NCBI GenBank assembly: GCA_016705365.1
Contig: JADIYI010000008.1
Coordinates: forward strand, 1,349,572-1,413,571
Origin: Gammaproteobacteria bacterium
Lineage (GTDB): Bacteria > Pseudomonadota > Gammaproteobacteria > Pseudomonadales > UBA5518
Reading direction: 5' to 3'
Length of the DNA stretch: 64,000 nucleotides
The notes beneath the pieces are model-generated. The model was not told the origin of the DNA, did not search any database, and worked only from the letters and a program-made list of their open reading frames with translations. This document shows, piece by piece, positions 7,865-63,097 of the stretch (positions are counted from its first letter, which is position 1; every line of letters starts with the position of its first letter). The translations under genes and the position numbers were made by a program.

Positions 7865-8485
7865 ATGATCGGTCGGATACGTGGCATCATCCTCGAGAAG
7901 CAGGCGCCCGAGCTGGTCATCGACGTGCATGGCGTGGGTTACGAGTTGCAGGCGCCGCTCAGCACCTTCTACAAGCTGCCAGCCCCGGGGCAGGAAGTGG
8001 TGCTGTACACGCATTTCGTGGTGCGCGAGGACGCGCAGCAACTCTACGGCTTCTGGCAGCGCGAGGACCGCAGCCTGTTCCGCACGCTGATCCGGGTCAG
8101 CGGGGTCGGGCCCAAGCTCGCGCTGGCGATTCTCTCGGGCATGGATTCCGAGGAGTTCGTGCGCAGCGTGCAGCGCAATGACGCACGCGCACTGGTGAAC
8201 CTGCCTGGCGTGGGCAAGAAAACCGCCGAGCGGCTGATTGTCGAGATGCGTGATCGCCTCGACGAGTGGCGCCCGGAGCTGTCCGGGGGAAGTGTCGCGA
8301 CGCCGTCCTCCGATATCGTCGCCACGAGTCGCAATCGCATGGTGCAGGATGCCGAGAGCGCGCTGATAGCGCTCGGCTACAAGCCGCAGGAAGCCGCGCG
8401 CGCGGTCTCGGCAGCGCTCGATGACGAGGTGCTCGAGAGCGAGGAGCTGATCCGGCGCGCCCTGCAGGGCAAGGCGCGTGCATGA
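7865..8485 (+). CDS. ruvA: Holliday junction branch migration protein RuvA
   Basis: [28 protein letters not shown]; I used the internal ATG at 7865 of the track ORF. Confidence 0.92.
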
Positions 8486-8495
8486 GGAGCGCAGC

Positions 8496-9545
8496 ATGAT
8501 CGAAACCGACCGCCTGGTGGCCGCCGAGGTCAAGCAGAATGAGGACGTCATCGATCGTGCGGTGCGCCCGCGCACGCTTGCCGATTACGTGGGGCAACCG
8601 GTGGCGCGCGAACAGATGGAGATCTTCGTGGCGGCCGCGCGTGGTCGCAAGGAAGCGCTCGATCACACGCTGATCTACGGGCCGCCGGGTCTGGGCAAGA
8701 CCACACTGGCCCATATCATCGCCAACGAGATGGGTGTGTCGATGAGGAGCACCTCGGGTCCGGTGCTCGAGAAAGCCGGCGATCTCGCCGCACTGATGAC
8801 CAACCTCGAGCCGGGCGACGTGCTGTTCATCGACGAGATCCACCGTCTGAGCCCCCAGGTGGAAGAGGTGCTGTACCCGGCAATGGAGGATTTCCAGCTC
8901 GACATCATGATCGGCGAGGGGCCGGCCGCGCGTTCGATCAAGCTGGAGTTGCCGCAGTTCACACTGGTGGGTGCGACCACCCGCGCCGGACTCCTGACCT
9001 CGCCGCTGCGTGATCGCTTTGGCATCGTGCAGCGTCTCGAGTTCTATTCGGTGGCGGACCTCGCCTGGATCGTGGCACGCTCGGGACGGATTCTCGGCAT
9101 CGAACTCGAGGAGGCCGGCGCGCGCGAGATCGCGCGCCGCGCGCGCGGCACGCCACGTATCGCCAACCGCCTGTTGCGGAGGGTGCGCGATTTCGCGCAG
9201 GTGCGCCATGACGGACGGATCAGTGCGCAGATCGCCGACGCGGCGCTCAACATGCTGAGCGTCGACCAACAGGGCTTCGATCACATGGATCGCCGGCTGT
9301 TGCTGGCGATGATCGAGAAGTTCGATGGCGGTCCGGTGGGCGTGGAGAGCCTGGCCTCGGCCATCAGCGAGGAGCGGGGCACGATCGAGGACGTGCTCGA
9401 GCCGTTCCTGATCCAGCAGGGTTACATGATGCGTACCCCGCGCGGGCGCATGGTCACGCGCGCGGCCTATCTGCACTTCGGACTGCAGCCGCGGGTCAGC
9501 ATGGCCAATATGGATCTGCTCGGGCAGGCGGAGGATGAGCCTTGA
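8496..9545 (+). CDS. ruvB: Holliday junction DNA helicase RuvB
   Basis: MIETDRLV...[11 protein letters not shown] Walker A; GAGGAG RBS before the ATG at 8496. Confidence 0.95.
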
Positions 9546-9979
9546 GCGGCGGCTGGAGCAGTGACGAGTTTCGGCTGCCGCTGCGGGTATATATAGAAGA
9601 CACGGACGCTGGCGGCATCGTCTATTACGTGAATTACCTGAAATATTTCGAGCGTGCACGGACCGAGCTGATGCGCAGTCACGGGTTTGCCCGGCCCGCG
9701 CTGCCCGAGGCCGGCCTGATGTTCGTGGTCAATTCGCTGCAGGTCGACTACCTCAGCCCGGCGCGGCTCGATGACGAACTGATGGCCTGTGCGCGGCTAT
9801 GCGGCGGCGGCCGCGCCCGGCTGCTGTTCGCGCAACGGATCCTGCGCGCGGGGCAGGATATCTGTCGCGCCGAGGTCAGCGTGGCATGCGTGAGCCCGGC
9901 CACCGGCAAACCCTGCGCGCTGCCGGCGCGGATGCGCGCCGTGTTGAATGGCGGCGGCCCGGGGACCCAAACCGATTAA
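9542..9979 (+). CDS. ybgC: tol-pal-associated acyl-CoA thioesterase YbgC
   Basis: [29 protein letters not shown] hot-dog thioesterase motif; position upstream of tolQ; TTG start is uncertain. Confidence 0.8.
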
Positions 9980-9997
9980 TCGCAATGGAGAAATGAC

Positions 9998-10696
9998 GTG
10001 AACGAAGAGTTATCGCTCTGGGAGCTGGTGCTGAACGCCAGTTTCGTGGTGCAACTGGTGATGTTGCTGCTGTTCATGGCCTCGGTCGTCTCCTGGGGCA
10101 TGATCGTGCAGCGTGCCCTGTTGCTGCGCCGCGCGAAGCAGCAGTTGCTGGGTTTCGAGCAGACCTTCTGGTCGGGCATCGATCTCAGCCAGCTCTACCG
10201 TGACGGCAGCAGCCGGCTCGAGAACGGCGAACGGCTCGAGGGCGTCGAGAACCTGTTCCGCGCCGGCTTCAAGGAATTCACCCGCCTGCGTCAGCAAGAG
10301 GGCATCGATTCCGACGCGATCATGGAAGGTGCCCAGCGCGCGATGCGGGTCGCACTCTCGCGCGAGGAAGAGCATCTCGAGCGTCACCTGCCCTTCCTGG
10401 CGACGGTAGGCTCCACCAGTCCGTATGTGGGTCTTTTCGGTACCGTTTGGGGAATCATGCACTCCTTCCGCGGTCTCGCCAATGTGCACCAGGCGACGCT
10501 CGCCACCGTGGCACCCGGTATCTCCGAAGCCCTGATTGCCACCGCGATGGGCTTGTTCGCGGCGATCCCTGCGGTGATTGCCTACAACCGCTACTCGGCG
10601 CGGGTCGAGAACCTGATTGCCAACTACGAAACTTTCGCCGAGGAATTTTCCAGCATTCTCCATCGCCAGGCCCACGCGGTCAGAAAGAGCGCCTGA
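9998..10696 (+). CDS. tolQ: Tol-Pal system protein TolQ
   Basis: 232 aa MotA/TolQ/ExbB family; LATVGSTSPYVGLFGTVWGIM. Confidence 0.9.
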   Translation: MNEELSLWELVLNASFVVQLVMLLLFMASVVSWGMIVQRALLLRRAKQQLLGFEQTFWSGIDLSQLYRDGSSRLENGERLEGVENLFRAGFKEFTRLRQQEGIDSDAIMEGAQRAMRVALSREEEHLERHLPFLATVGSTSPYVGLFGTVWGIMHSFRGLANVHQATLATVAPGISEALIATAMGLFAAIPAVIAYNRYSARVENLIANYETFAEEFSSILHRQAHAVRKSA

Positions 10697-17261: not shown

Positions 17262-18005
17262 ATGCATTCAATCGAACTCGATGATGGACGGCGGGTGCCC
17301 TACAGCATCCGCGTGTCGCGCCGCAGTCGTCGGGTGCGGCTGACGATCGATCCGCGCAATGGCGTGGTGATGGTGACACCGCCGGGCGTGGACCGGCAGT
17401 GGCTGACGGAGCTGGCCGCGAGCTGGCGTGGCTGGGTTGCGACCCAGATCGATCAGATGGGCATCGGCGAGCTGCAACCCACGACGGGCGACCGCGTCGC
17501 ATTGCCTGATTGCATTGAACTCGCTGCGCTGGGTGAGCGCTGGGAGATCTGCTATCGCTACACGCCTTCGGCCGCGGCGAGGGTGCGCCAGAGCGGAGCG
17601 GGTCGTTTGCTGCTGAGCGGTGATTGCGCGAACCACGGCGCCTGCCGTCGCGCATTGGTACGCTGGCTCGGTCGTCGTGCACGCGAGGTGCTGCCTGCAT
17701 GGCTGGAGGAGGTCTCGGCCGCGACCGGGCTGCCTTTTTCCAGTGTCGTGATCCGTGCCCAGCGCAGCCGTTGGGGAAGTTGTTCGGCGAAGGGTGATAT
17801 CAGTCTGAATTACCAGTTGCTGTTCCTGCCCCGGGAGCTCGCGCGCCATGTGCTGCTGCACGAACTCTGTCATACCGTCGAGCTGAATCATTCGGCGCGG
17901 TTCTGGCGCACAGTGCACCGCTTCGAGCCCGAACTCGAGCGGATGCGCAAGGATATGCGGCGTTCGTGGTCGCATGTTCCCGCCTGGGTGAACGAAGCCG
18001 CCTGA
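17262..18005 (+). CDS. YgjP-like (DUF45) M48-type metal-dependent hydrolase
   Basis: HELCHTVELNHSARFW (HExxH) and WGSCSAKGDISLNYQL motifs; start at the internal ATG 17262. Confidence 0.8.
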   Translation: MHSIELDDGRRVPYSIRVSRRSRRVRLTIDPRNGVVMVTPPGVDRQWLTELAASWRGWVATQIDQMGIGELQPTTGDRVALPDCIELAALGERWEICYRYTPSAAARVRQSGAGRLLLSGDCANHGACRRALVRWLGRRAREVLPAWLEEVSAATGLPFSSVVIRAQRSRWGSCSAKGDISLNYQLLFLPRELARHVLLHELCHTVELNHSARFWRTVHRFEPELERMRKDMRRSWSHVPAWVNEAA

Positions 18006-54309: not shown

Positions 54310-55713
54310 TCAGAGGACACCTGCGTCTGCAAACTCAATCATCAGAGCAATTGCGCGGCCACAGTTATCGACGAGGGCGCGAAAATGCGACCTCAGATCG
54401 CCGTGCTGCGCGATCAGTGCCTCGCGGATCGCCTTGGCGTCCGATCCGCCTGCGTGGCCCTTCATCTTGGTGCGCAAGTCGTGCAGCGATTTCAGTGGGG
54501 CCACGACAGCAGTTGCCTCCTCCTCGTTTACCTGTGCATGCATAAGGACCTCGCCGATCAGTTTCAGGCTGCCCCATTGCGGCTCGATGGTGATACCGGC
54601 TGCTTCGGCTTTCGACTTGAAATAGCTTCTGCTCAACCCCTCGACGACCAACTGGTCGAGGGCCATCAGTTCATTTGCCCACTCTTCCTGGCTGGCCGTA
54701 ACTGGGTAGTGCACGCGACCTGGCAGCTTTGGATTCTTCAGGCTCCACCACGCTATTCCTGCACCGTTCAACACTTCGAGGCGTCTTTTCAGGCTTGCCA
54801 GCGGGTCCGGGGAGGTGTCCCACTGTGCCAGGAAGTCGGATTTGTAAGCGCGCGCTGAGATCCCCGCCTTGGGCGCCTCGTTGAACGACTTCCAGTAGAG
54901 TTGTTCAGCATATGGCAGAAGGCTGAGATCGCAGAGGTAGGCGTGCGCCTGGCCTGCCTCGTTGATGTCGTAGCTCTTCAGGAACCACGCCCCACGGCAA
55001 TGAATGGATCGTCCTTCGATCTGGTACTTGTCCGGGTCTGCTTTGTACTTCAGCAATATTTCCGGCCGGAAAAACGCGGGGCTGGTTTGAAATGGCAGAT
55101 CGGATTCGACGAAGTAGTTGCCGAGATGAACGGGATCGCATGAGCACTCGTGCACCACAGCGTGCTTCCAGTCGTGGGCTATGAAGGTGGCGTACTGTTT
55201 TGGTTCGGGGGATTCCCACATCAGGCGTCGCCGTAGCCGATGGTTGATGACAGGCGCGGTCACCTGAAACCCGCGCAGATAGCTTTCACGGCCCGCGTTG
55301 GCGCGACCACGGTAATAGAGGTTTTCTTCGACTAGGCTGACATGTTCCTCGGGGCCATCGCCCCAGCTGGTAAAATTTCCAGGGTCGAACCGTGTGGAAT
55401 CGAACAGCAAGACGTACGACGATTCGAACATCAAGAGCAGCACATCGAGGTCTTCGCGCTTGATCGTGACCACGAGGCCATCCTGCAGTTTATGGATACG
55501 CACAACCTCTTCGACGTCACCGTTTTCATCCAGCCGGCAGTAGGCGCTGCGTTCAGGCACGAGATGCAGCCCCAACAAGTGCGCTACCTTTTGCGAGAGT
55601 TCGACGTAGGTGTGGTTGTCCCGGTGGCCGTCGAACTCACGGATGAACAGCAATTGTTCACCAAGCTCAAGCGTCCTCGATCCGCAACTGCTCAAGGGCG
55701 GTTCGATCCACAT
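54310..55713 (-). CDS. uncharacterised 467-aa protein at the 3' end of the type I R-M operon (C-terminal R-x5-H motif)
   Basis: Long ORF with unbiased composition in an AT-richer segment, same strand as and contiguous with the hsd genes; no family recognised by eye. Confidence 0.75.
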   Translation of the reverse strand: MWIEPPLSSCGSRTLELGEQLLFIREFDGHRDNHTYVELSQKVAHLLGLHLVPERSAYCRLDENGDVEEVVRIHKLQDGLVVTIKREDLDVLLLMFESSYVLLFDSTRFDPGNFTSWGDGPEEHVSLVEENLYYRGRANAGRESYLRGFQVTAPVINHRLRRRLMWESPEPKQYATFIAHDWKHAVVHECSCDPVHLGNYFVESDLPFQTSPAFFRPEILLKYKADPDKYQIEGRSIHCRGAWFLKSYDINEAGQAHAYLCDLSLLPYAEQLYWKSFNEAPKAGISARAYKSDFLAQWDTSPDPLASLKRRLEVLNGAGIAWWSLKNPKLPGRVHYPVTASQEEWANELMALDQLVVEGLSRSYFKSKAEAAGITIEPQWGSLKLIGEVLMHAQVNEEEATAVVAPLKSLHDLRTKMKGHAGGSDAKAIREALIAQHGDLRSHFRALVDNCGRAIALMIEFADAGVL

Positions 55714-55991
55714 CTGCCGTTCCGATAGAGGTGCGATTCGCCGTTGAGATACTGCCGCGCCGGAGTGCGCGGGCGATAACGATCGAACTCGGCCAGTTGC
55801 CGGCTGATCCAGCCAACGCGTTTCCGCACCCGCTCGGCGATCAATGCCTGCGGGCAGCCCAGCGGTGCGCGCACCAGCACGCGACTGTCGGGGTGCACCT
55901 CGATGACCAGCGTCTGGCGCGAGGCCAAAAAGCGCACTTCGTAGCGAATCGTATCAGGGCCGTAGGTGAGAATGCCGACCATGGTCTTCAT
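55692..55991 (-). pseudogene. truncated DUF45/YgjP-like metallohydrolase gene (N-terminal ~90 aa, no HExxH)
   Basis: TIRYEVRFLASRQTLVIEVHPDSRVLVRAP...RKRVGWISRQL...YLNGESHLY matches DUF45 N-termini (compare 17262-18005). Stops before the catalytic region; ATGA overlap with the hsdR stop. Confidence 0.6.
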
Positions 55992-58900
55992 CCCGCCATC
56001 CGGTGATGGGCGAGCTGCAATGCTTTCTCGATAATCTTGTCCATTTCGTCGGTGGAAAGCGGGATCCCGCGCGCGCCCTTCAGCTCGTCATAGAGGTAGT
56101 CGTCGATCTCGTTCATGGTCCGGCGCTGGGCATCGAGATCATCCCAGTAGCCCACCTTGCGGTTGCGCCGGAAGATGTCCCACACCGCCATGGCCGCCTG
56201 GATGGCGATCGTCTGCGCCTGTTCGGCGTCGTTCAGGTGGTTCGCCAAAATGGGGCGCAGCAGGCCATAGACGGCGGCCGCGTCGGCGTCACCGTTTAGC
56301 GCGGGCGGCAGGTCGTCGCCCTTGCGGGAGACGACGGCATCCTTGATCGCGGTGACGCGCTGAAGGTATTCCAGATCGGACAGGCGCCTGGCGCGGTAAT
56401 CATCGATGGCCTGCTGGATAAGCCTGGAGAACTTCTCGTAAAAGGCCGGGTCCTGCTCCAGTCGTTCGCTGATGGCACGCTTGGTGGCGTGGGCTATCGT
56501 GTCGGCTTTGGCGCCGAGGCTTTTTCCACTACCTGCGCCTAGCTCCTCCACCACCCTTTGGAATGCGGCCTCGTCGAAAATGTTCACTGGCGCGTTGATC
56601 TGCACCACCTCAGAGGCCGAGATGTGTGTGTCCAGCAGCTTCTGGATGCGCGGCTCGAAATCGCGATAATCCACCGACTCGGCGTAGCGCAGCTTCACCG
56701 CCGCCTTGAGATTGACGAAGCGCTTCAGGTCGTTCTTGTAGGCGCGCAGCTTCTGCTCGGGTGTCTCGGTGATGAAACGTTCGCTGGAGAGCGCGATCGC
56801 CAGTGTCTTGGCGTAGGCCGACAGCCGCTCGTAGAAATCGGCGCGCAGCTTCTCGTCAGCCAGCAGCTGTTCGAAGGCTTCCTCGTCCTGGCGGTTCTTC
56901 ACTGCCTTGAACAGGTCCCATAATTCGGCATGGCGCTGCGCCAGCGCCCTGGTTTCTTCATGGATCGAGGTCAGCGCACCTTCGAGATCCGCCGCCTCGA
57001 ATCCTTCCAAAGCGCTGTAGGTGGTCAGCGCCTGGTCCAGTTCGCCCAGCACGCCCACGTAGTCGATGACGTAGCCAAAGTCCTTGGCCTTGCTGCCGGA
57101 TTCGTCCTCGTACAGGCGATTGACCCGGGCAATGGCCTGCAGCAAGGAATGGTCCTTGAGCCGGCGGGCCAGATAGAGCACCGTGTTGCGCGGTGCATCG
57201 AAGCCGGTCAGCAGCTTGTCCACCACGATCAGGATTTCCGGCTCGTCACCGAACTTGAAGGCGTTGACGATCTGCTTGTTATAGTCCTCCTCCGAGCCGT
57301 AGCGCTTCATCATGCGCTGCCAGAAGGCCACTACCGCATCGGCGGATTCCTCGGCGTCGATTTCGTCGAAGCCTTCGCGCTCGTCGGGTGGCGAGATGAT
57401 CACCTCGCTGGTGACCGCGCCCAGCTCATCCAGGAATGCCTTGTAGCGCAGCGCGGCCGCCTTGTTGGGCGCAACCAGCTGCGCCTTGAAGCCGGTACCC
57501 TGCCAGTTCTGGCGGTAATGCTCGCTGATATCGAAGGCGCGCATGTAAATCACCTGCTCGGCCTTGTTGAGCATTTCCGCGCGGGCGTACTTCTTTTTGA
57601 GATCCGCCTTCTGCTGGTCTGTCAGCCCCTGGGTGTGACGCTCGAACCAGATGTCGATGGCGGCCTGGTTCTGCTCCAGTTCCACCATGCGGCCTTCGTA
57701 GAGCAGCGGCACGATGGCGCCGTCGGCTACCGCCTGGTCGATGGCATAGGTGTGGATCACGCCGCCGAACCTGGCCACATCGCTCTTCTCGCGCGTCAAC
57801 AGCGGCGTGCCGGTGAAGCCGATGTAGCAGGCATTGGGAAACATCTGACGCATGCGCGCCGAGTAGCCGCCGAGCTGGGTGCGCTGGGTTTCGTCCACGA
57901 GCACGAAGATATCGGGCGAGGCATCGCTGAATTTCTTGTAGGCCAGCGCCTTGTCGAACTTGTGCACCAGGGTGGTGACGATGTGCGACTTTCCATCGGC
58001 CACGAGATCCACGAGATGACGGCCGCTCTCGGCCCGGTCGGGCGAGAGGCCGCAGGCGGCAAAGGTGTTGCCGAGCTGCTTGTCCAGGTCCACGCGGTCG
58101 GTCACCAGCACGATGCGCGGATTGCGGATGGCTGGCTCCAGCGCCAACGCGCGGGCCAGCATCACCATGGTCAGCGATTTGCCCGAGCCCTGGGTATGCC
58201 AGACGATGCCGCCCCGGCGCTTGCCACTGTCGTCCGTCTGTTTGACTCGCGCGAGCACCTCGCGGATGGCGAACACCTGCTGGTAGCGCGCGATCTTGCG
58301 CACACCGCCGTCGAACACGGTGAAGGCCCAGGCCATCTCCAGCAGGCGCTCGGGGCGGCACAGCGCGTAGAGCGCGCGATCCTGTGCGGTCACCTGGCGG
58401 GCGACCAGGTAGGGCGCGATCTCCTCGCGCACGCCCAGTTCCGCAAATGCCAGATCGAACAGCGAGGCCTTGACCGATTCCGGCAGCGGACGGTCCAAGA
58501 GCGGCGAAATCGCGACGTTCGCGATGTCTTCTTTCCACTTCGACCAGAACTTGGCCGGGGTGCCAGTGGTGGCGTAGCGGGCCTCGTTCTTGTTCATCGC
58601 CAGCACGGTCTGCACATAGGTGAACAGGCGCGGGATGTACTCGTCGCGCTGGTTGCGGATGGTCTGCGAGATGGCCTGTGCCACCTCGACCTTGGGCGAC
58701 TTGCATTCGATCACCGCGAAGGGAATGCCGTTGACGAACAGCACGATGTCGGGCCGACAGGTCTCGACGCTGCGGGTGCGCTCCACCGCGAACTCGGCAG
58801 CCACGTGATAGACGTTGTTGTCCGGGTCGCGCCAATCCACGTAGTTCAGGGTGAAGCTCTTCAGGTCGCCCTCGATGGACTGTTCCAGCGCCACGCCCAA

Positions 58901-59203
58901 TGTCAGCAAGTCGTAGACCGCCTCGTTGGTCTTGAGCAGGCCGTCGTACTTGACGTGCTTCAGCCGCTGGATGGCGCTCTGGATGTTCTCCTCGCTGAAG
59001 AGGTAGCTGCCGCCCTTGTGCAGGATGCGGTTCAGCTTCTTTAGCTGCTCGCGCAGGATTTCTTCCAGCAGGACGTTGGCGGCCCTGCCGCCCCGCGCAG
59101 CCAACGCCTCGGCGGGTGTCAGATACTGGAAGCCCAGATTGACCAGCACCTGCAGGGCAGGAATCTGGGAGAGGTGTTTTTCGTCGAAGCGGAAGCTGTC
59201 CAT
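55988..59203 (-). CDS. hsdR: type I restriction enzyme, R subunit
   Basis: 1071 aa. N-terminal nuclease region (PDIVLFVNGIPFAVIECK), helicase motif I HTQGSGKSLTM, DExx box VLVDETQR. Confidence 0.93.
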   Translation of the reverse strand: MDSFRFDEKHLSQIPALQVLVNLGFQYLTPAEALAARGGRAANVLLEEILREQLKKLNRILHKGGSYLFSEENIQSAIQRLKHVKYDGLLKTNEAVYDLLTLGVALEQSIEGDLKSFTLNYVDWRDPDNNVYHVAAEFAVERTRSVETCRPDIVLFVNGIPFAVIECKSPKVEVAQAISQTIRNQRDEYIPRLFTYVQTVLAMNKNEARYATTGTPAKFWSKWKEDIANVAISPLLDRPLPESVKASLFDLAFAELGVREEIAPYLVARQVTAQDRALYALCRPERLLEMAWAFTVFDGGVRKIARYQQVFAIREVLARVKQTDDSGKRRGGIVWHTQGSGKSLTMVMLARALALEPAIRNPRIVLVTDRVDLDKQLGNTFAACGLSPDRAESGRHLVDLVADGKSHIVTTLVHKFDKALAYKKFSDASPDIFVLVDETQRTQLGGYSARMRQMFPNACYIGFTGTPLLTREKSDVARFGGVIHTYAIDQAVADGAIVPLLYEGRMVELEQNQAAIDIWFERHTQGLTDQQKADLKKKYARAEMLNKAEQVIYMRAFDISEHYRQNWQGTGFKAQLVAPNKAAALRYKAFLDELGAVTSEVIISPPDEREGFDEIDAEESADAVVAFWQRMMKRYGSEEDYNKQIVNAFKFGDEPEILIVVDKLLTGFDAPRNTVLYLARRLKDHSLLQAIARVNRLYEDESGSKAKDFGYVIDYVGVLGELDQALTTYSALEGFEAADLEGALTSIHEETRALAQRHAELWDLFKAVKNRQDEEAFEQLLADEKLRADFYERLSAYAKTLAIALSSERFITETPEQKLRAYKNDLKRFVNLKAAVKLRYAESVDYRDFEPRIQKLLDTHISASEVVQINAPVNIFDEAAFQRVVEELGAGSGKSLGAKADTIAHATKRAISERLEQDPAFYEKFSRLIQQAIDDYRARRLSDLEYLQRVTAIKDAVVSRKGDDLPPALNGDADAAAVYGLLRPILANHLNDAEQAQTIAIQAAMAVWDIFRRNRKVGYWDDLDAQRRTMNEIDDYLYDELKGARGIPLSTDEMDKIIEKALQLAHHRMAG

Positions 59204-59206
59204 GAC

Positions 59207-60127
59207 TCAAATCCCCAGCATGCCGCCAACGGGCGGCAGTAGGCGATTGATCGTGGCTTCCGCCTGAATGGAATTACCAGAACGTTCTTGGGACTGCGCA
59301 AGCGATGCGAGCTGTTTCAGGCGGCTTACTGCATCCTGCTTCCATTGCGGTGCTGACCAGTCGGCCATTAAGGAGTTAGCGGCCTGAATGAAGTAGTCTG
59401 CCAATTGACGAGAGGCAAGCAACCCAAAAAAGCCATATCCCTGGCCAGCAATATGTTGTTCCAGTGCATAGGACTCGAATGGGTACTTCGCCGTGGCGTT
59501 CCAGTATTTCATGGCTCGGATCAGCGGCTTGATGAGATTGCCGTTGGCCTGATTCGCGCTGCTCAGTGTCTGGTTGAAACCGTTCGGGTCGGTATCCTGC
59601 CAACTCTGATAACCGGAGCCTTTGCCTGGGATCTGCAGGTCGCTGAACCAGTTCCGCACGGCGGGCACCAGCTCGAAGCGAATATGGTTGAGTTCCAGCA
59701 CTACAGTTGGGTGCGATTGCGCCACTTCGGAGCGGGCGTACTTGATCTCTGTAAAACGACGCAGACGGTCCAGGTAGCTTTGCGGCTGCAACCCGCTGTC
59801 CGAAAAGATGGTGGCCCACTGACGGAACTGGGTGCCGCGCGGGGAGCGCACCCGGTAGCCGACGGCCAGGATCATGTCGAGGCTGTAAGCCTTTGTTTTG
59901 TAGCTCTTCCCGTCACTGGCAGTTGTCAAGTATTCCTTGACGACTGCCGCTGACAGCTCACCCTCGGCCAGGATGTTCTTGATGTGCAGGCTGATGTTCT
60001 GCTTTGAGGTATCAAACAGGGTTGCCATTTCCAGCTGGGTCAGCCAGACGCTGCCGCCCTCGGCACGCAGCTGAATGACGGCGCTGCCATCCTCTGCGGT
60101 GTAGAGGATCAGTTCGCCGCCGCTCAC
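59207..60127 (-). CDS. mosaic ORF: RhuM-type N-terminal HTH module fused to the C-terminal part of a nucleotidyltransferase-like (SMODS/MNT-type) protein
   Basis: aa 1-106 (LILYTAEDGS...WLTQLEMATLF..NISLHIKNILAEGEL...AVGYRVRSPRGTQFRQWAT) are RhuM-like. aa ~130-230 (IRFELVPAV...WQDTDPNGF...LIKPLIRAMKYWN...FESYALEQHI) look like an NTase C-terminal region without the N-terminal GS/DxD catalytic motifs. Confidence 0.7.
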   Translation of the reverse strand: MSGGELILYTAEDGSAVIQLRAEGGSVWLTQLEMATLFDTSKQNISLHIKNILAEGELSAAVVKEYLTTASDGKSYKTKAYSLDMILAVGYRVRSPRGTQFRQWATIFSDSGLQPQSYLDRLRRFTEIKYARSEVAQSHPTVVLELNHIRFELVPAVRNWFSDLQIPGKGSGYQSWQDTDPNGFNQTLSSANQANGNLIKPLIRAMKYWNATAKYPFESYALEQHIAGQGYGFFGLLASRQLADYFIQAANSLMADWSAPQWKQDAVSRLKQLASLAQSQERSGNSIQAEATINRLLPPVGGMLGI

Positions 60128-60975
60128 TTTTTCTTCTCCAGCTTCTTCTTGCTCTTTTCGATCTGCTGGATGCTGGCCTCGGGCGTGGGCAGAAACTCGG
60201 GCATGGTGCCACCCAAGTCGGCAATGGTCTGGCGCACCTTCTGACCAACCTCGAAGTGGGTCTGATTGGCCTTCTGCTTGCCGCGCACATGGTCCCGACG
60301 CAACTTCTCCTCTGTCTGGGTGGCGCGGAACAGGTTGGCGGCCAGCTCCGTACTGCCCATGTGGTCGAGGATTTTCTGGCTCTTCTTGAGGCCCTTGGCG
60401 GAATGAATGTCCTTGGCACCGCGCCCGCCATACAGACCCTTGTACCCGTGATCCTGGAAGATGGCGTAGTCCAGCGGCGTTTCCACACCGGCATCCTTGG
60501 CAGCGGCCGCCAGGTGCTTGTTGTGGGTGGCCAGCTCGTTGCGGATAGCCAGACGCTTGTCGTCCTCGCTGAGTCGGGCGAAAGTCTCGTTATCGCGCAG
60601 CTCCTGGCGGCGGGTCTGCAGGGCGAAGTAGGTCTGGCCGTTGGCGATGACCGGCTTGGCCGGATCGCCGTTCTGCACGATCAGGTAGCAGGCGTAGCGG
60701 GGCAGGCGGATGTCGGTCACCTGGCGTTTGGCGCCCGAGCCGATTTCGACCATACCGAGGACATCCTCGAAATGGTCGGCCTCGGGGTGGCCGCTGTTGC
60801 GGCAGGCTTCCTTGGCCCGTTCGATTACCGGCAGGAAGTGGCGGTATTCCGAGTACTCCAGCACGCGGGCAAGCTGGCGCGCCATCCAGTATTCGTTGCC
60901 GTCGGCATCGAACTGGCGGATGCTCTCGAAGGTCTGGTGGTGCTGGTCGACGATGGGTTTGCCGGTTTTTTTCAT
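60124..60975 (-). CDS. dinD: DNA-damage-inducible protein D homologue
   Basis: HHQTFESIRQ..., RYACYLIVQNGDP, QTYFALQTRRQEL, ILDHMGSTELAANLFRATQTE, GGTMPEFLPTPE: full-length resemblance to E. coli DinD as I recall it. Confidence 0.85.
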   Translation of the reverse strand: MKKTGKPIVDQHHQTFESIRQFDADGNEYWMARQLARVLEYSEYRHFLPVIERAKEACRNSGHPEADHFEDVLGMVEIGSGAKRQVTDIRLPRYACYLIVQNGDPAKPVIANGQTYFALQTRRQELRDNETFARLSEDDKRLAIRNELATHNKHLAAAAKDAGVETPLDYAIFQDHGYKGLYGGRGAKDIHSAKGLKKSQKILDHMGSTELAANLFRATQTEEKLRRDHVRGKQKANQTHFEVGQKVRQTIADLGGTMPEFLPTPEASIQQIEKSKKKLEKKK

Positions 60976-62531
60976 ACGCCCAGCTCCTTCAAGTATTGCT
61001 TCATACGCGTGCGCACCTCTACCAGCTCTCCCTCTAGGCGTTCGATCTCCAGCTCCACGGCGGCGACATCGATCTCTTCCTCTTCCTCGAAGGTATCCAC
61101 ATAGCGCGGGATGTTGAGGTTGAAGTCGTTATCGGCAATCTCCTGCAGGCCCGCGACGTGGGCGTACTTGTCCATCGGCTGACGGGCGCGGAAGGTGGTC
61201 AGCACCCTGGCCCTGTGCTCGTCGAGCAGGACGTTCTGGTTCTTGCCGCTCTGGTAGTCGCGGCTGGCGTCGATGAACAGCACCTCCTGGCAGGCCTCGC
61301 GGGCGCCACCCTTTTCGCGGGCGCGGTCGAACACCAAGATGGCGACCGGGATCGAGGTGGTGGGGAACAGGTTGCCCGGCAGGCCGATGACGGCATCGAG
61401 CAGGTTCTCCTCGATCAGGGCGCGGCGGATGCGGCCCTCGGCACCGCCCCGGAACAGCACGCCGTGCGGTACCACTACGGCCACGCGGCCTTCCTGCGGC
61501 AGCGCGGTTTCGATCATGTGGGTGACGAAGGCGTAGTCACCTTTGGACTTGGGTGGCAGGCCGCGCCAGAAGCGGTTGTAGCGATCCGCTTGGGCTTCAC
61601 TGGCACCCCATTTGTCGAGCCTGAAGGGCGGATTGGCCACCACTACGTTGAAGCGCATCAGGCGATCGGCCTCCACCAGCGCCGGGCTGTTGAGGGTGTC
61701 GCCCCATTCGATGCGCGCGGCATCCTTGCCGTGCAGGAACATGTTCATGCGCGCCAGTGCCCAGGTGCTGCCGTTGACCTCCTGGCCGAACAGGGCGAAA
61801 TCGCGGCTGCCTTGCGCCTCGACCAGCGCGGCGGCTTCGATCAGCAGACCGCCGGCGCCGCAGGTGGGGTCGCAGATGCGGTCGCCGGGCTTGGGAGTCG
61901 CCAGTTGCGCCAGCAGCTTCGACACCTGCTTGGGTGTGTAGAACTCGCCGGCCTTCTTGCCGGCGTCGGAGGCGAAGCGCTCGATCAGGTAGATATAGGT
62001 GTCGCCGATTACGTCTTCGGAGACGCGCGACGGGCGCAGGTCCAGCTTGGCGAAATCACCCAGCAGGTTTTCCAGGCGGCGGTTGCGGTCCTTGGTTTTG
62101 CCTAGATTGGCTTCTGAGTTGAAGTCGATATTGCGGAACACGCCTTCGAGCTTGGCCTTGTTGGCCTCCTCGATGTGGTCGAGCACGATGTTGATCAGCT
62201 CGCCCAGGTTGGCCGCCTTGCGCCGCTCGTACAGAGCGTGGAAGTCGGCCAGAAAGCGGTCGGTGATTTCGCCGGTTTTCTCGTCCTTGAACTCGACGTA
62301 GGGCAGGGTGAAGCGCTCGCGCTCCAGCTTGCGGCGGATGCGCTCTTCGTTGTTGCCGTACTCCTTCTGGTACTCGGCATAGTGGTCGGCCCACTGGTCG
62401 CTTATGTATTTCAGGAACAGCATCACCAGGATGTAGTCCTTGTACTGCGCCGGATCGATGACGCCGCGAAATGTGTCGCAGGCGGCCCAGGCCGTGTTGT
62501 TGACGTCTTGTTGGGTGAGCTGGTCGGTCAT
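60972..62531 (-). CDS. hsdM: type I restriction-modification system, M subunit (N6-adenine methyltransferase)
   Basis: ATG at 62531; HsdM N-terminal domain (YKDYILVMLFLKYISD), DPTCGAGGLL SAM motif, VVANPPF catalytic motif. Confidence 0.93.
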   Translation of the reverse strand: MTDQLTQQDVNNTAWAACDTFRGVIDPAQYKDYILVMLFLKYISDQWADHYAEYQKEYGNNEERIRRKLERERFTLPYVEFKDEKTGEITDRFLADFHALYERRKAANLGELINIVLDHIEEANKAKLEGVFRNIDFNSEANLGKTKDRNRRLENLLGDFAKLDLRPSRVSEDVIGDTYIYLIERFASDAGKKAGEFYTPKQVSKLLAQLATPKPGDRICDPTCGAGGLLIEAAALVEAQGSRDFALFGQEVNGSTWALARMNMFLHGKDAARIEWGDTLNSPALVEADRLMRFNVVVANPPFRLDKWGASEAQADRYNRFWRGLPPKSKGDYAFVTHMIETALPQEGRVAVVVPHGVLFRGGAEGRIRRALIEENLLDAVIGLPGNLFPTTSIPVAILVFDRAREKGGAREACQEVLFIDASRDYQSGKNQNVLLDEHRARVLTTFRARQPMDKYAHVAGLQEIADNDFNLNIPRYVDTFEEEEEIDVAAVELEIERLEGELVEVRTRMKQYLKELGV

Positions 62532-63097
62532 GGGGTGGTCTCGTGGGCAATCTTCATCAGAAGGTGGGTGGTCACGCGTTGGCGCAGGGCGGCGATCTGT
62601 GCCAGCAGCGATTGTTCCTGTTCGGCCAAGGCGGCGGCCTGCACGATGCTTCGCTGCGCGGCCAGTGCGGGCAGCGGCACGTCCAGCACCTTGAGGGCTT
62701 CGGCGCTGATCATCCGTACCGAGGTGCCCTCGGCCAGCGCTCCCAGTTGGGCCTGGGTGGCCGGTGCGTTGATGTACCAGCACAGATACTCGGGCAGCAC
62801 GCCGTGGGGCCGGATCAGCAGCATCGGCGCCGTGAGCACCGCCGAAGCGATCCCGTCCAGCACCAGTGCCGCGCCATTGCTGCGGCCGCGCGAGCGAAAG
62901 AGTAGATCGCCCGCGCGCAGCAGGTGGTGGGTCTTGCCCTTGGGCAGCGCCACCCTGATGGCATCCTCGGCATGCAGCAGATTGGCGTCGTCGATGTCCT
63001 TCATCTGGATCACCGTGACATCGCCCTGTGGGTCGTGCTCGAGGCGCGCCCGGAAGGGGTATCCCATCTGTACTTCCGCTAGTCTTCCTAGGTGCAT
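62528..63097 (-). CDS. hsdS: type I R-M specificity subunit, half-size (single target-recognition domain)
   Basis: 189 aa: LGRLAEVQMGYPF..., GDLLFRSRG, YLCWYINAP, then the conserved helix LPALAAQRSIVQAAALAEQEQSLL. Only one TRD plus one conserved region; ATGA overlap with hsdM. Confidence 0.8.
   Translation of the reverse strand: MHLGRLAEVQMGYPFRARLEHDPQGDVTVIQMKDIDDANLLHAEDAIRVALPKGKTHHLLRAGDLLFRSRGRSNGAALVLDGIASAVLTAPMLLIRPHGVLPEYLCWYINAPATQAQLGALAEGTSVRMISAEALKVLDVPLPALAAQRSIVQAAALAEQEQSLLAQIAALRQRVTTHLLMKIAHETTP

What the first reader, a model, noticed from the sequence alone, without database searches (positions are those of the whole stretch)
59207..60127. Mosaic ORF between dinD and hsdR: RhuM N-terminal module joined to a catalytic-motif-less nucleotidyltransferase C-terminus
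Residues 1-106 match the N-terminal HTH-containing part of RhuM-family proteins up to ...GTQFRQWAT. The expected RhuM continuation is absent. Instead the sequence shows the pattern typical of the C-terminal part of SMODS/MNT-like nucleotidyltransferases: IRFELVPAV, WQDTDPNGF, LIKPLIRAMKYWN, FESYALEQHI. The N-terminal Gly-Ser and DxD catalytic motifs are missing. The breakpoint is near 59810. Despite looking like a recombination scar, the ORF keeps an ATGA overlap with dinD and ends 3 nt before the hsdR ATG. That suggests it is translated as part of the operon. It could be a decayed relic or a repurposed DNA-binding adaptor or sensor.
Basis: partly seen in the sequence, partly recalled or inferred. 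Interest (0 to 1): 0.6.

Follow-up and report, generated by a model that had tools for sequence, protein, structure and literature searches.

The report
Deletion scar fusing two defence genes
This open reading frame is the leftover of a roughly 2.6-kb deletion inside a restriction-modification operon that joined the front of one anti-phage gene (rhuM) in frame to the back of another (a CBASS cyclase), so it is a real but ordinary gene remnant and not a new kind of protein.

Summary
The ORF at 60127..59207 (minus strand, 306 aa) is a chimera. Residues 1-106 are the N-terminal domain of a RhuM-family protein. Residues 107-306 correspond to residues 73-272 of a 272-aa SMODS/CD-NTase (CBASS cyclase). 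The Gly-Ser and DxD catalytic motifs are missing.

Relatives of the same type I R-M cassette show the undeleted order: half-hsdS, hsdM, (dinD), rhuM, hsdS, 2TM/SLATT effector, SMODS cyclase, hsdR, ygjP. Here a single roughly 2.6-kb deletion runs from rhuM codon 106 to cyclase codon 73. It removed the rest of rhuM, the full-length hsdS, the CBASS effector and the cyclase's catalytic part. The junction is at 59810|59809.

The fusion is not an assembly artefact. It occurs with the same junction and the same neighbours in more than 20 independent wastewater contigs and MAGs. All belong to one near-identical lineage.

There is no sign of decay and no sign of selection, because the event is too recent for the data to tell. 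The most likely reading is a young, catalytically dead remnant that is still co-transcribed. Interest is low.

The parts
59207..60127 (-). Chimeric ORF of 306 codons plus TGA. GTG start overlaps the dinD stop (GTGA).
59810..60127 (-). RhuM-derived module, codons 1-106. A complete N-terminal winged-helix-like domain that ends at ...FRQWAT.
   Evidence: Pfam and PADLOC. It is 90-93% identical at the amino-acid level to the N-termini of full-length RhuM in L007 and L010-L014. The AF2 model is compact, with pLDDT 79 and pTM 0.70.
59207..59809 (-). SMODS/CD-NTase-derived module, codons 107-306, equivalent to residues 73-272 of the intact 272-aa cyclase. It lacks the GS and DxD motifs and keeps the third acidic residue (E152).
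   Evidence: PADLOC PDLC00769 profile positions 73-259 of 261. It is 89% identical to P0002 over the part of the query it aligns with (66% of the query).
59809..59810 (-). Deletion junction: rhuM ...CAGTGGGCCACC | ATCTTTTCGGAC... cyclase. In frame, with at most 1 nt of microhomology.
60124..60975 (-). dinD (283 aa, Bro-N domain plus the DinD family), the upstream gene in the operon.
   Evidence: NCBIfam NF008573, 450 bits against a cut-off of 242. PADLOC PDC-S13.
60972..62531 (-). hsdM (519 aa).
62528..63097 (-). Half-size HsdS-like gene (189 aa, one target-recognition domain). It is the only specificity-type gene left in the locus.
   Evidence: PADLOC Specificity_I PDLC03199, E 6e-22. Conserved in all related cassettes.
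55988..59203 (-). hsdR (1071 aa). It starts 3 nt after the chimeric ORF's stop.
55692..55991 (-). Truncated YgjP-like gene (99 codons, against 233 in relatives). This is a second deletion in the same operon.

Best explanation
**What happened.** The ORF is a deletion-generated chimera inside a type I restriction-modification operon that carried embedded defence genes. The ancestral order, preserved in relatives, was: half-hsdS, hsdM, dinD, rhuM, hsdS, 2TM/SLATT effector, SMODS cyclase, hsdR, ygjP. One illegitimate-recombination deletion of about 2.6 kb joined rhuM codon 106 in frame to cyclase codon 73.

**What was lost.** The deletion removed:
- the conserved C-terminal two-thirds of RhuM;
- the full-length specificity gene hsdS;
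- the CBASS membrane effector;
- the part of the cyclase that carries the Gly-Ser and DxD motifs.

**What remains.** The ORF keeps the original rhuM start, which is coupled to dinD. It also keeps the original cyclase stop, 3 nt before hsdR. It is therefore probably still transcribed and may be translated (inferred). Its product would be an intact RhuM N-domain attached to a nucleotidyltransferase remnant that cannot catalyse. No cognate effector is left for any signal to act on.

**Most likely status.** It is a young, non-functional remnant. It is still open only because too little time has passed for it to decay.
For: **The two halves.** Each half hits a different family, with complementary partial profile coverage.

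**The deletion, seen by DNA comparison.**
- blastn against the undeleted relative L003 follows rhuM to L003 position 5652, then jumps to position 8218 inside the cyclase gene. That is 2565 bp missing.
- The equivalent distance in L007 is 2619 bp.
- Junction sequences are shown.

**The missing interval in relatives.**
- It holds hsdS.
- It holds a 167-aa protein that matches the PADLOC CBASS 2TM effector model at E 1e-64.
- It holds the cyclase N-terminus.
- In every complete cassette of this family surveyed, at least 1208 bp separates rhuM from hsdR.
- dinD lies between hsdM and rhuM in L011.

**Catalytic loss.** G50, S51, D67 and D69 are at least 90% conserved in intact homologues and fall in the deleted part.

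**Structure.**
- AF2 gives pLDDT below 50 for the surviving catalytic-core piece (fusion residues about 129-178).
- It gives mostly 76-91 (two blocks at 66-68) for the helical C-lobe.
- The best structural match is P. aeruginosa CdnD.

**Real, not an artefact.** The same junction and neighbours occur in at least 22 contigs read, from 48 collection blocks. These include MAGs GCA_016717785.1, GCA_016707795.1, GCA_016703985.1, GCA_016709565.1 and GCA_964268245.1.

**A single origin.** Only the six members of one 90%-identity cluster, out of 387 proteins retrieved, contain both halves.

**The locus is eroding elsewhere too.** A second deletion of about 791 bp truncates ygjP.
Against: - The remnant shows no decay. 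It has no stop or frameshift in any strain.
- It has no substitution at the 55 columns that are at least 95% conserved among 117 intact cyclases.
- dN/dS against intact relatives is 0.11-0.19, the same as between intact genes.
- The junction is in frame and falls exactly at the end of a predicted autonomous N-domain.
- Both translational signals are kept.

All of this is expected for a recent deletion, but it is also what a selected neo-gene would show. Within-lineage diversity is too low to decide: 1 synonymous and 0 non-synonymous changes in 12 contigs, plus M85I in other MAGs. No expression data were available.
Confidence: 0.8

Rival explanations
1. Neo-functionalised protein. The intact RhuM N-terminal DNA-binding-like domain, fused to the helical C-lobe of the cyclase, acts as a regulator, adaptor or sensor for the surrounding R-M/dinD operon.
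For: - The N-domain is predicted to fold on its own (pLDDT 79).
- It is a shuffled module elsewhere: tandem copies in P0247 and P0256, and Bro-N/DinD-N fusions of 400-435 aa.
- The ORF is intact and fixed in all sampled strains.
- There is no excess of amino-acid change.
Against: - The fusion is confined to one near-clonal lineage at 99.3-99.7% nucleotide identity.
- No independent occurrence was found.
- The fragment between the two confident parts is modelled with pLDDT below 50.
- Truncated or internally deleted RhuM fragments are common database debris.
- The same operon carries a second deletion.
Confidence: 0.1
2. Sequence-independent role. The ORF is kept open only because ribosomes must read through to its stop, 3 nt before the hsdR ATG, to maintain translational coupling and avoid polarity on hsdR.
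For: - Genes in this cassette family are joined by 4-nt stop/start overlaps or 3-nt gaps.
- The deletion is in frame and retains both the dinD-coupled start and the native stop in front of hsdR.
Against: - An in-frame outcome has a one-in-three chance anyway.
- hsdR has its own purine-rich GGGGA stretch 8 nt upstream of its ATG (read), so it may not depend on coupling.
- With the full-length hsdS gone, it is unclear that hsdR expression is still useful.
- This was not testable here.
Confidence: 0.08
3. Assembly or sequencing artefact: a chimeric contig that joins two loci.
For: The R-M cassette is shared at 85-90% identity among many co-occurring taxa. SNP patches in hsdM and hsdR could reflect some cross-assembly.
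Against: The identical junction and flanks occur in short-read and long-contig assemblies from many independent samples, including contigs of up to 3.18 Mb.
Confidence: 0.01
4. A normal member of a single known family that aligns end to end.
For: NCBI annotates the protein as 'virulence RhuM family protein'.
Against: - Only positions 1-49 of 252 of the RhuM profile are matched.
- The rest matches positions 73-259 of 261 of the cyclase profile.
- Full-length RhuM continues ...QWATTHLREYLVKGF, whereas this ORF continues ...QWATIFSDSGLQPQ.
Confidence: 0.01

Closest known systems
Minimal (type I) CBASS with a 2TM/SLATT effector and a 272-aa SMODS CD-NTase, as embedded in related R-M cassettes (L003, L004, L007, L009, L087)
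   Same: Residues 107-306 are 81-89% identical to residues 73-272 of these cyclases. The stop codon sits in the same position, 3 nt before hsdR in L003.
   Different: The first 72 residues, which carry the GS and DxD motifs, are gone, and so is the whole effector gene. No cyclase activity and no signalling output are possible.
RhuM family (Pfam PF13310; PADLOC candidate PDC-S05). One tested representative reduced plating of T7 and T5 about 1000-fold (bioRxiv 10.1101/2024.09.26.614923).
   Same: Residues 1-106 are 90-93% identical to the N-terminus of full-length RhuM proteins in the same cassette family.
   Different: About 230 C-terminal residues are missing, equal to Pfam profile positions 50-252.
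P. aeruginosa CdnD (PDB 6P82, 6P8J, 6P8U)
   Same: It is the best solved-structure match for the C-terminal part. Sequence: E 4e-6 over query residues 152-280. Foldseek: probability 1.00, 27% identity over about 141 columns.
   Different: CdnD is a complete enzyme regulated by HORMA/TRIP13 partners. Here only the back part remains and there are no partners.
Defence genes embedded in type I R-M operons, such as PrrC and the 'guilt-by-embedding' candidates (Payne et al., bioRxiv 10.1101/2024.01.29.577857)
   Same: dinD, rhuM and the CBASS pair occupy the typical embedded positions between hsdM/hsdS and hsdR.
   Different: In this locus the embedded cargo has been partly deleted and is not intact.
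Truncated or internally deleted RhuM fragments in public databases
   Same: Many proteins of 100-186 aa hold only the RhuM N-domain, followed by unrelated tails or by the distant RhuM C-terminal tail.
   Different: Here the tail is a recognisable, well-preserved piece of a neighbouring gene, and the ancestral arrangement can be reconstructed.

Membership tests
CD-NTase / SMODS (CBASS cyclase) | Gly-Ser activation-loop motif and [D/E]x[D/E] metal-binding motif in the N-terminal part of the Pol-beta-like core | tested here: not met
   G50, S51, D67 and D69 are at least 90% conserved in 55 intact homologues. They lie in columns absent from the fusion. The profile match starts at position 73 of 261.
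CD-NTase / SMODS (CBASS cyclase) | Third acidic residue and the helical C-lobe of the fold | tested here: met
   E152 in the FELVP motif is retained. The C-lobe is modelled mostly at pLDDT 76-91 and matches CdnD.
CD-NTase / SMODS (CBASS cyclase) | Score above the curated family threshold | tested here: not met
   NCBIfam CBASS_cyclase_b scores 66.9 bits against a cut-off of 200. The partial Pfam SMODS hit does pass its domain cut-off (61.3 against 26.5).
CBASS system | Cyclase gene adjacent to a cyclic-nucleotide-activated effector gene | tested here: not met
   No effector gene is in the locus. The 2TM effector present in relatives (PDLC00712, E 1e-64) lies within the deleted interval.
RhuM family (PF13310 / PDC-S05) | N-terminal domain of about 105 aa ending ...FRQWAT | tested here: met
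RhuM family (PF13310 / PDC-S05) | Full RhuM domain (Pfam profile positions 1-252; protein of about 330 aa) | tested here: not met
   Only profile positions 1-49 are matched. Full-length relatives match positions 1-250.
Type I restriction-modification operon | hsdM and hsdR present and intact | tested here: met
   Intact ORFs of 519 aa and 1071 aa, 91-94% identical to relatives.
Type I restriction-modification operon | Full-length two-domain hsdS | tested here: not met
   No hit in the 64-kb window to the one full-length HsdS used as query (from L003; HsdS sequences are highly divergent). Only the 189-aa single-domain HsdS-like gene remains. Most of the 24 complete related cassettes gave a detectable hsdS hit, and all have at least 1.2 kb between rhuM and hsdR.
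Type I restriction-modification operon | Methylation and restriction activity | not testable with these tools
   This needs methylome or restriction assays.

The most novel reading that the evidence does not exclude
The in-frame chimera could be a newly born functional gene. Its autonomous RhuM N-domain (winged-helix-like) would tether the helical C-lobe of a dead cyclase to DNA or to the R-M complex. It would then act as a regulator or decoy in an operon that now relies on a half-size HsdS.
Probability: 0.07. Interest if true: 0.5.

Novelty: new member of a known kind. Interest (0 to 1): 0.2.

Why it matters
The main value is for annotation and for reading defence repertoires correctly.

- NCBI names this protein 'virulence RhuM family protein'. 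PADLOC-type HMMs hit it as both a RhuM candidate and a CBASS cyclase. Automated pipelines could therefore count a RhuM defence and a CBASS cyclase that are not there.
- It is a clean, datable example of how cargo embedded in type I R-M operons is lost. One non-homologous deletion removed parts of three defence functions at once (RhuM, CBASS and hsdS), and it became fixed in a wastewater bacterial lineage.
- It does not open a new mechanism.

Tried and rejected
- **AF2 on the whole fusion.** MAFFT misaligned mixed full-length cyclases and RhuM fragments (A1 and A2). The two halves were therefore modelled separately, so nothing can be said about packing between them.
- **Search with the N-terminal 106 aa.** It returned only proteins shorter than 190 aa. 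It did not yield a full-length near-identical RhuM or the pre-deletion allele.
- **Exact look-ups of dinD and of the fusion.** These aimed to find a strain of the same lineage with the undeleted locus. Every context carried the deletion.
- **P0123 (240 aa).** It looked like a disrupted allele. The DNA is an intact 306-codon ORF with a different start call and M85I.
- **Apparent long alignments.** Query coverage of 86-91% by some 272-aa cyclases is spurious low-identity extension. The representative hits P0358 and P0380, which seemed to span the junction, have unrelated or canonical RhuM continuations.
- **Promoter and terminator scan.** It gave nothing above chance. There is one promoter-like site at 63165-63137 upstream of the half-hsdS.
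- **Polymorphism, conserved-column and dN/dS tests.** They had no power to separate 'recent' from 'selected'.
- **Fold search of the N-domain.** No PDB match at E of 0.001 or better. Only weak winged-helix resemblances appeared.

Full report
**1. The observation**

The minus-strand ORF 60127..59207 encodes 306 aa. It ends with TGA at 59209-59207, 3 nt before the hsdR ATG at 59203.

The two halves were searched separately.
- Pfam Virulence_RhuM covers residues 61-106, using only profile positions 1-49 of 252.
- Pfam SMODS covers residues 111-192, using only profile positions 85-164 of 164.
- PADLOC sharpens this. RhuM-type PDC-S05 models cover residues about 1-106 (best E 2e-45). The CBASS cyclase model PDLC00769 covers residues 107-298, equal to profile positions 73-259 of 261 (E 1.9e-68).
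- NCBIfam's CBASS cyclase model scores 66.9 bits against a cut-off of 200, so this is a partial match.
- The upstream gene is a full DinD (450 bits against a cut-off of 242).

The mosaic is therefore real, and both halves are far beyond chance.

**2. What the undeleted locus looks like**

The nearest relatives of the C-terminal half are 272-aa SMODS nucleotidyltransferases, up to 89% identical over the part of the query they align with (66% of the query). Their contigs show a conserved type I R-M cassette, in this order:
- a 189-aa single-domain HsdS-like gene;
- hsdM;
- rhuM (337 aa);
- a full-length hsdS;
- a 167-aa gene;
- the 272-aa SMODS gene;
- hsdR, starting 3 nt after the SMODS stop;
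- a 233-aa YgjP-like gene.

The 167-aa protein matches the PADLOC CBASS '2TM effector' model (E 1.1e-64). It gives only weak SLATT hits in Pfam. The cargo is therefore a minimal effector-plus-cyclase CBASS.

A scan of species-representative genomes found 307 relatives. Each listed hit matched either residues 1-106 (a few alignments run on to residue 123) or residues 104-306, never both halves. Annotating those loci shows the same cassette in many proteobacterial MAGs and isolates.
- RhuM N-termini are up to 93% identical to the fusion.
- dinD lies between hsdM and rhuM in L011.
- The effector-cyclase pair is present in L007, L008 and L009.
- At least 1208 bp separates rhuM from hsdR in every complete cassette. 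That is enough room for hsdS, which was detected in most of them.

**3. The event**

blastn of the window against L003 follows hsdM. It skips dinD, which L003 lacks. It then follows rhuM up to L003 position 5652 (77% identity) and resumes at L003 position 8218 inside the cyclase gene (87%), running on through hsdR.

The missing 2565 bp (2619 bp when measured on L007) hold four things: the rest of rhuM, hsdS, the 2TM effector and the first 72 codons of the cyclase.

At the junction, rhuM reads ...CAG TGG GCC ACC and the cyclase resumes ATC TTT TCG GAC. Several intact cyclases read ...DYMV-IFSDSGLQPQ, exactly as the fusion continues. The joint is at a codon boundary with at most 1 nt of microhomology. 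This points to illegitimate recombination and not to homologous exchange.

The direction of the event is clear. Both parental families are widespread as complete genes, while the fusion holds complementary fragments of each.

**4. Is it real, and how widespread is it?**

The fusion forms a single 90%-identity cluster. Its members occur in JGI, ENA, Logan and NCBI data, including several wastewater MAGs labelled Gammaproteobacteria or Pseudomonadales bacterium. Contigs reach 3.18 Mb.

The index lists it in 48 collection blocks. All places shown among the 22 contigs read have the same chromosomal neighbours: methylmalonyl-CoA mutase, sulfotransferase, NamZ, then the cassette, then an FMN oxidoreductase.

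Operon sequences from 12 of these contigs are 99.3-99.7% identical to the window. One error-prone contig is 97% identical.

Of 387 proteins retrieved in three database searches, only the six cluster members contain both halves. The searches included a full HMMER scan of 1.84 billion representatives.

The fusion is therefore not an assembly artefact. It arose once and is fixed in one lineage.

**5. State of the product**

*Catalytic residues.* The catalytic Gly-Ser and DxD residues (G50, S51, D67, D69; at least 90% conserved in 55 intact homologues) are in the deleted part. Only the third acidic residue (E152 of the fusion) remains. It follows from established knowledge of Pol-beta-type and CD-NTase enzymes that such a protein cannot catalyse nucleotidyl transfer. 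No effector gene is left either.

*Structure models.*
- AF2 models the N-terminal 106 residues as a compact strand-helix-helix-hairpin-helix domain (pLDDT 79, pTM 0.70). The junction lies right after its last helix.
- PDB fold matches for that domain are only weak winged-helix resemblances.
- For the C-terminal 200 residues, the surviving piece of the catalytic core (fusion residues about 129-178) is modelled with pLDDT below 50.
- The helical C-lobe is modelled mostly at 76-91 (two blocks at 66-68). Its best structural match is P. aeruginosa CdnD.
- AF2 is not a stability test. The result is consistent with an incomplete core, no more.

**6. Selection or recency?**

- No strain carries a stop or a frameshift. 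An apparently shorter 240-aa entry is only a different start call.
- The cyclase-derived part has no change at 55 highly conserved columns.
- dN/dS against intact relatives is 0.11-0.19, the same as between intact genes.
- Within the lineage I saw one synonymous change in 12 contigs, plus M85I and one more synonymous change in other MAGs.
- The higher SNP density in hsdM and hsdR is confined to patches. These look like recombination with related cassettes or assembly mixing.

These data fit a recent deletion and cannot exclude selection.

Two observations tilt toward erosion. A second deletion of about 791 bp truncates the ygjP-like gene of the same operon. Truncated or internally deleted RhuM fragments are also common in databases.

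**7. Mechanism**

*Shown:* the gene order, the junction, the lost content, the recurrence and the single origin.

*Inferred:* the ORF is co-transcribed with hsdM, dinD and hsdR. It may be translated from the GTG, which has a GGAG 8 nt upstream within dinD. Its product is catalytically dead and probably without function.

*Alternatives:* a neo-functional DNA-binding adaptor, or an ORF kept open only to pass ribosomes to hsdR. Neither is excluded and neither is supported.

*Open question:* whether the R-M system still works with only the half-size HsdS-like gene. From my own knowledge, truncated HsdS proteins can dimerise to give palindromic specificities. This was not tested here.

**8. Comparison with what is known**

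- Genes embedded in type I R-M operons are a described phenomenon (10.1101/2024.01.29.577857; PMC12629846).
- dinD and rhuM domains between type I core genes have been noted (PMC9881135).
- A RhuM-domain PDC-S05 representative protected E. coli against T7, T5 and T4 (10.1101/2024.09.26.614923).

The chimera fails the defining tests for membership of the CD-NTase family, of a CBASS system and of full RhuM. It is best filed as a deletion remnant of all three.

**9. Verdict**

This is an ordinary evolutionary by-product of local interest, mainly for annotation. Interest is 0.2.

Noticed in passing
window 55692..55991 (-), junction about 55724-55726: A second deletion in the same operon. The YgjP-like gene after hsdR is cut to 99 codons (233 in relatives). 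About 791 bp are missing relative to L010, which brings the next ORF directly against it. Present in all strains seen.
   Followed up: partly
window 54310..55713 (-): A 467-aa ORF with no Pfam or PADLOC match. A 92%-identical copy lies downstream of the intact cassette in a Lautropia MAG (L010). A 42-aa N-terminal piece is in L018. It may be further cargo of the cassette.
   Followed up: partly
window 62528..63097 (-): A 189-aa single-domain HsdS-like gene upstream of hsdM is conserved (54-84% aa identity) in every cassette of this family. Each undeleted cassette also has a full-length, highly divergent hsdS. Its role is unclear, and it is the only S-type gene left here.
   Followed up: partly
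window 60124..60127; L011 about 9058-10430: The dinD/rhuM joint sits exactly on the stop/start overlap (GTGA here, against ATGA for hsdM/rhuM in relatives). L011 keeps a duplicated hsdM 3' end in front of rhuM and a 40%-identical RhuM N-fragment after dinD. This suggests cassette-like insertion at gene boundaries.
   Followed up: partly
window about 56300-57500 and 61900-62700 (hsdR, hsdM): Among 12 near-identical strain contigs, SNPs cluster in 400-nt patches (10-14 per patch) in hsdM and hsdR. The rest of the operon has 0-3 per 400 nt. This could be gene conversion from related cassettes or mixed assembly.
   Followed up: partly
window 60124..60975 (-): The window's dinD differs from nearly all other strain contigs at three residues (G74D, R90H, P92S; 9-10 of the other 11 contigs carry the alternative residue). 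An exact protein match was found only in GCA_016717785.1.
   Followed up: no
L008 6543-9794: In a Burkholderiaceae MAG the 2TM/SLATT effector gene of the embedded CBASS is split by an insertion of about 2.7 kb, and hsdR appears frameshifted. This is another decaying copy of the same cassette.
   Followed up: no
proteins P0247, P0256, P0268, P0276, P0302: The RhuM N-domain occurs as a tandem duplicate and behind a Bro-N/DinD-like domain in 400-435-aa proteins. It therefore behaves as a mobile module.
   Followed up: partly
window about 17295..17957 (+): A second, distant YgjP-like coding region (27% aa identity to the cassette's YgjP) lies elsewhere in the window.
   Followed up: no
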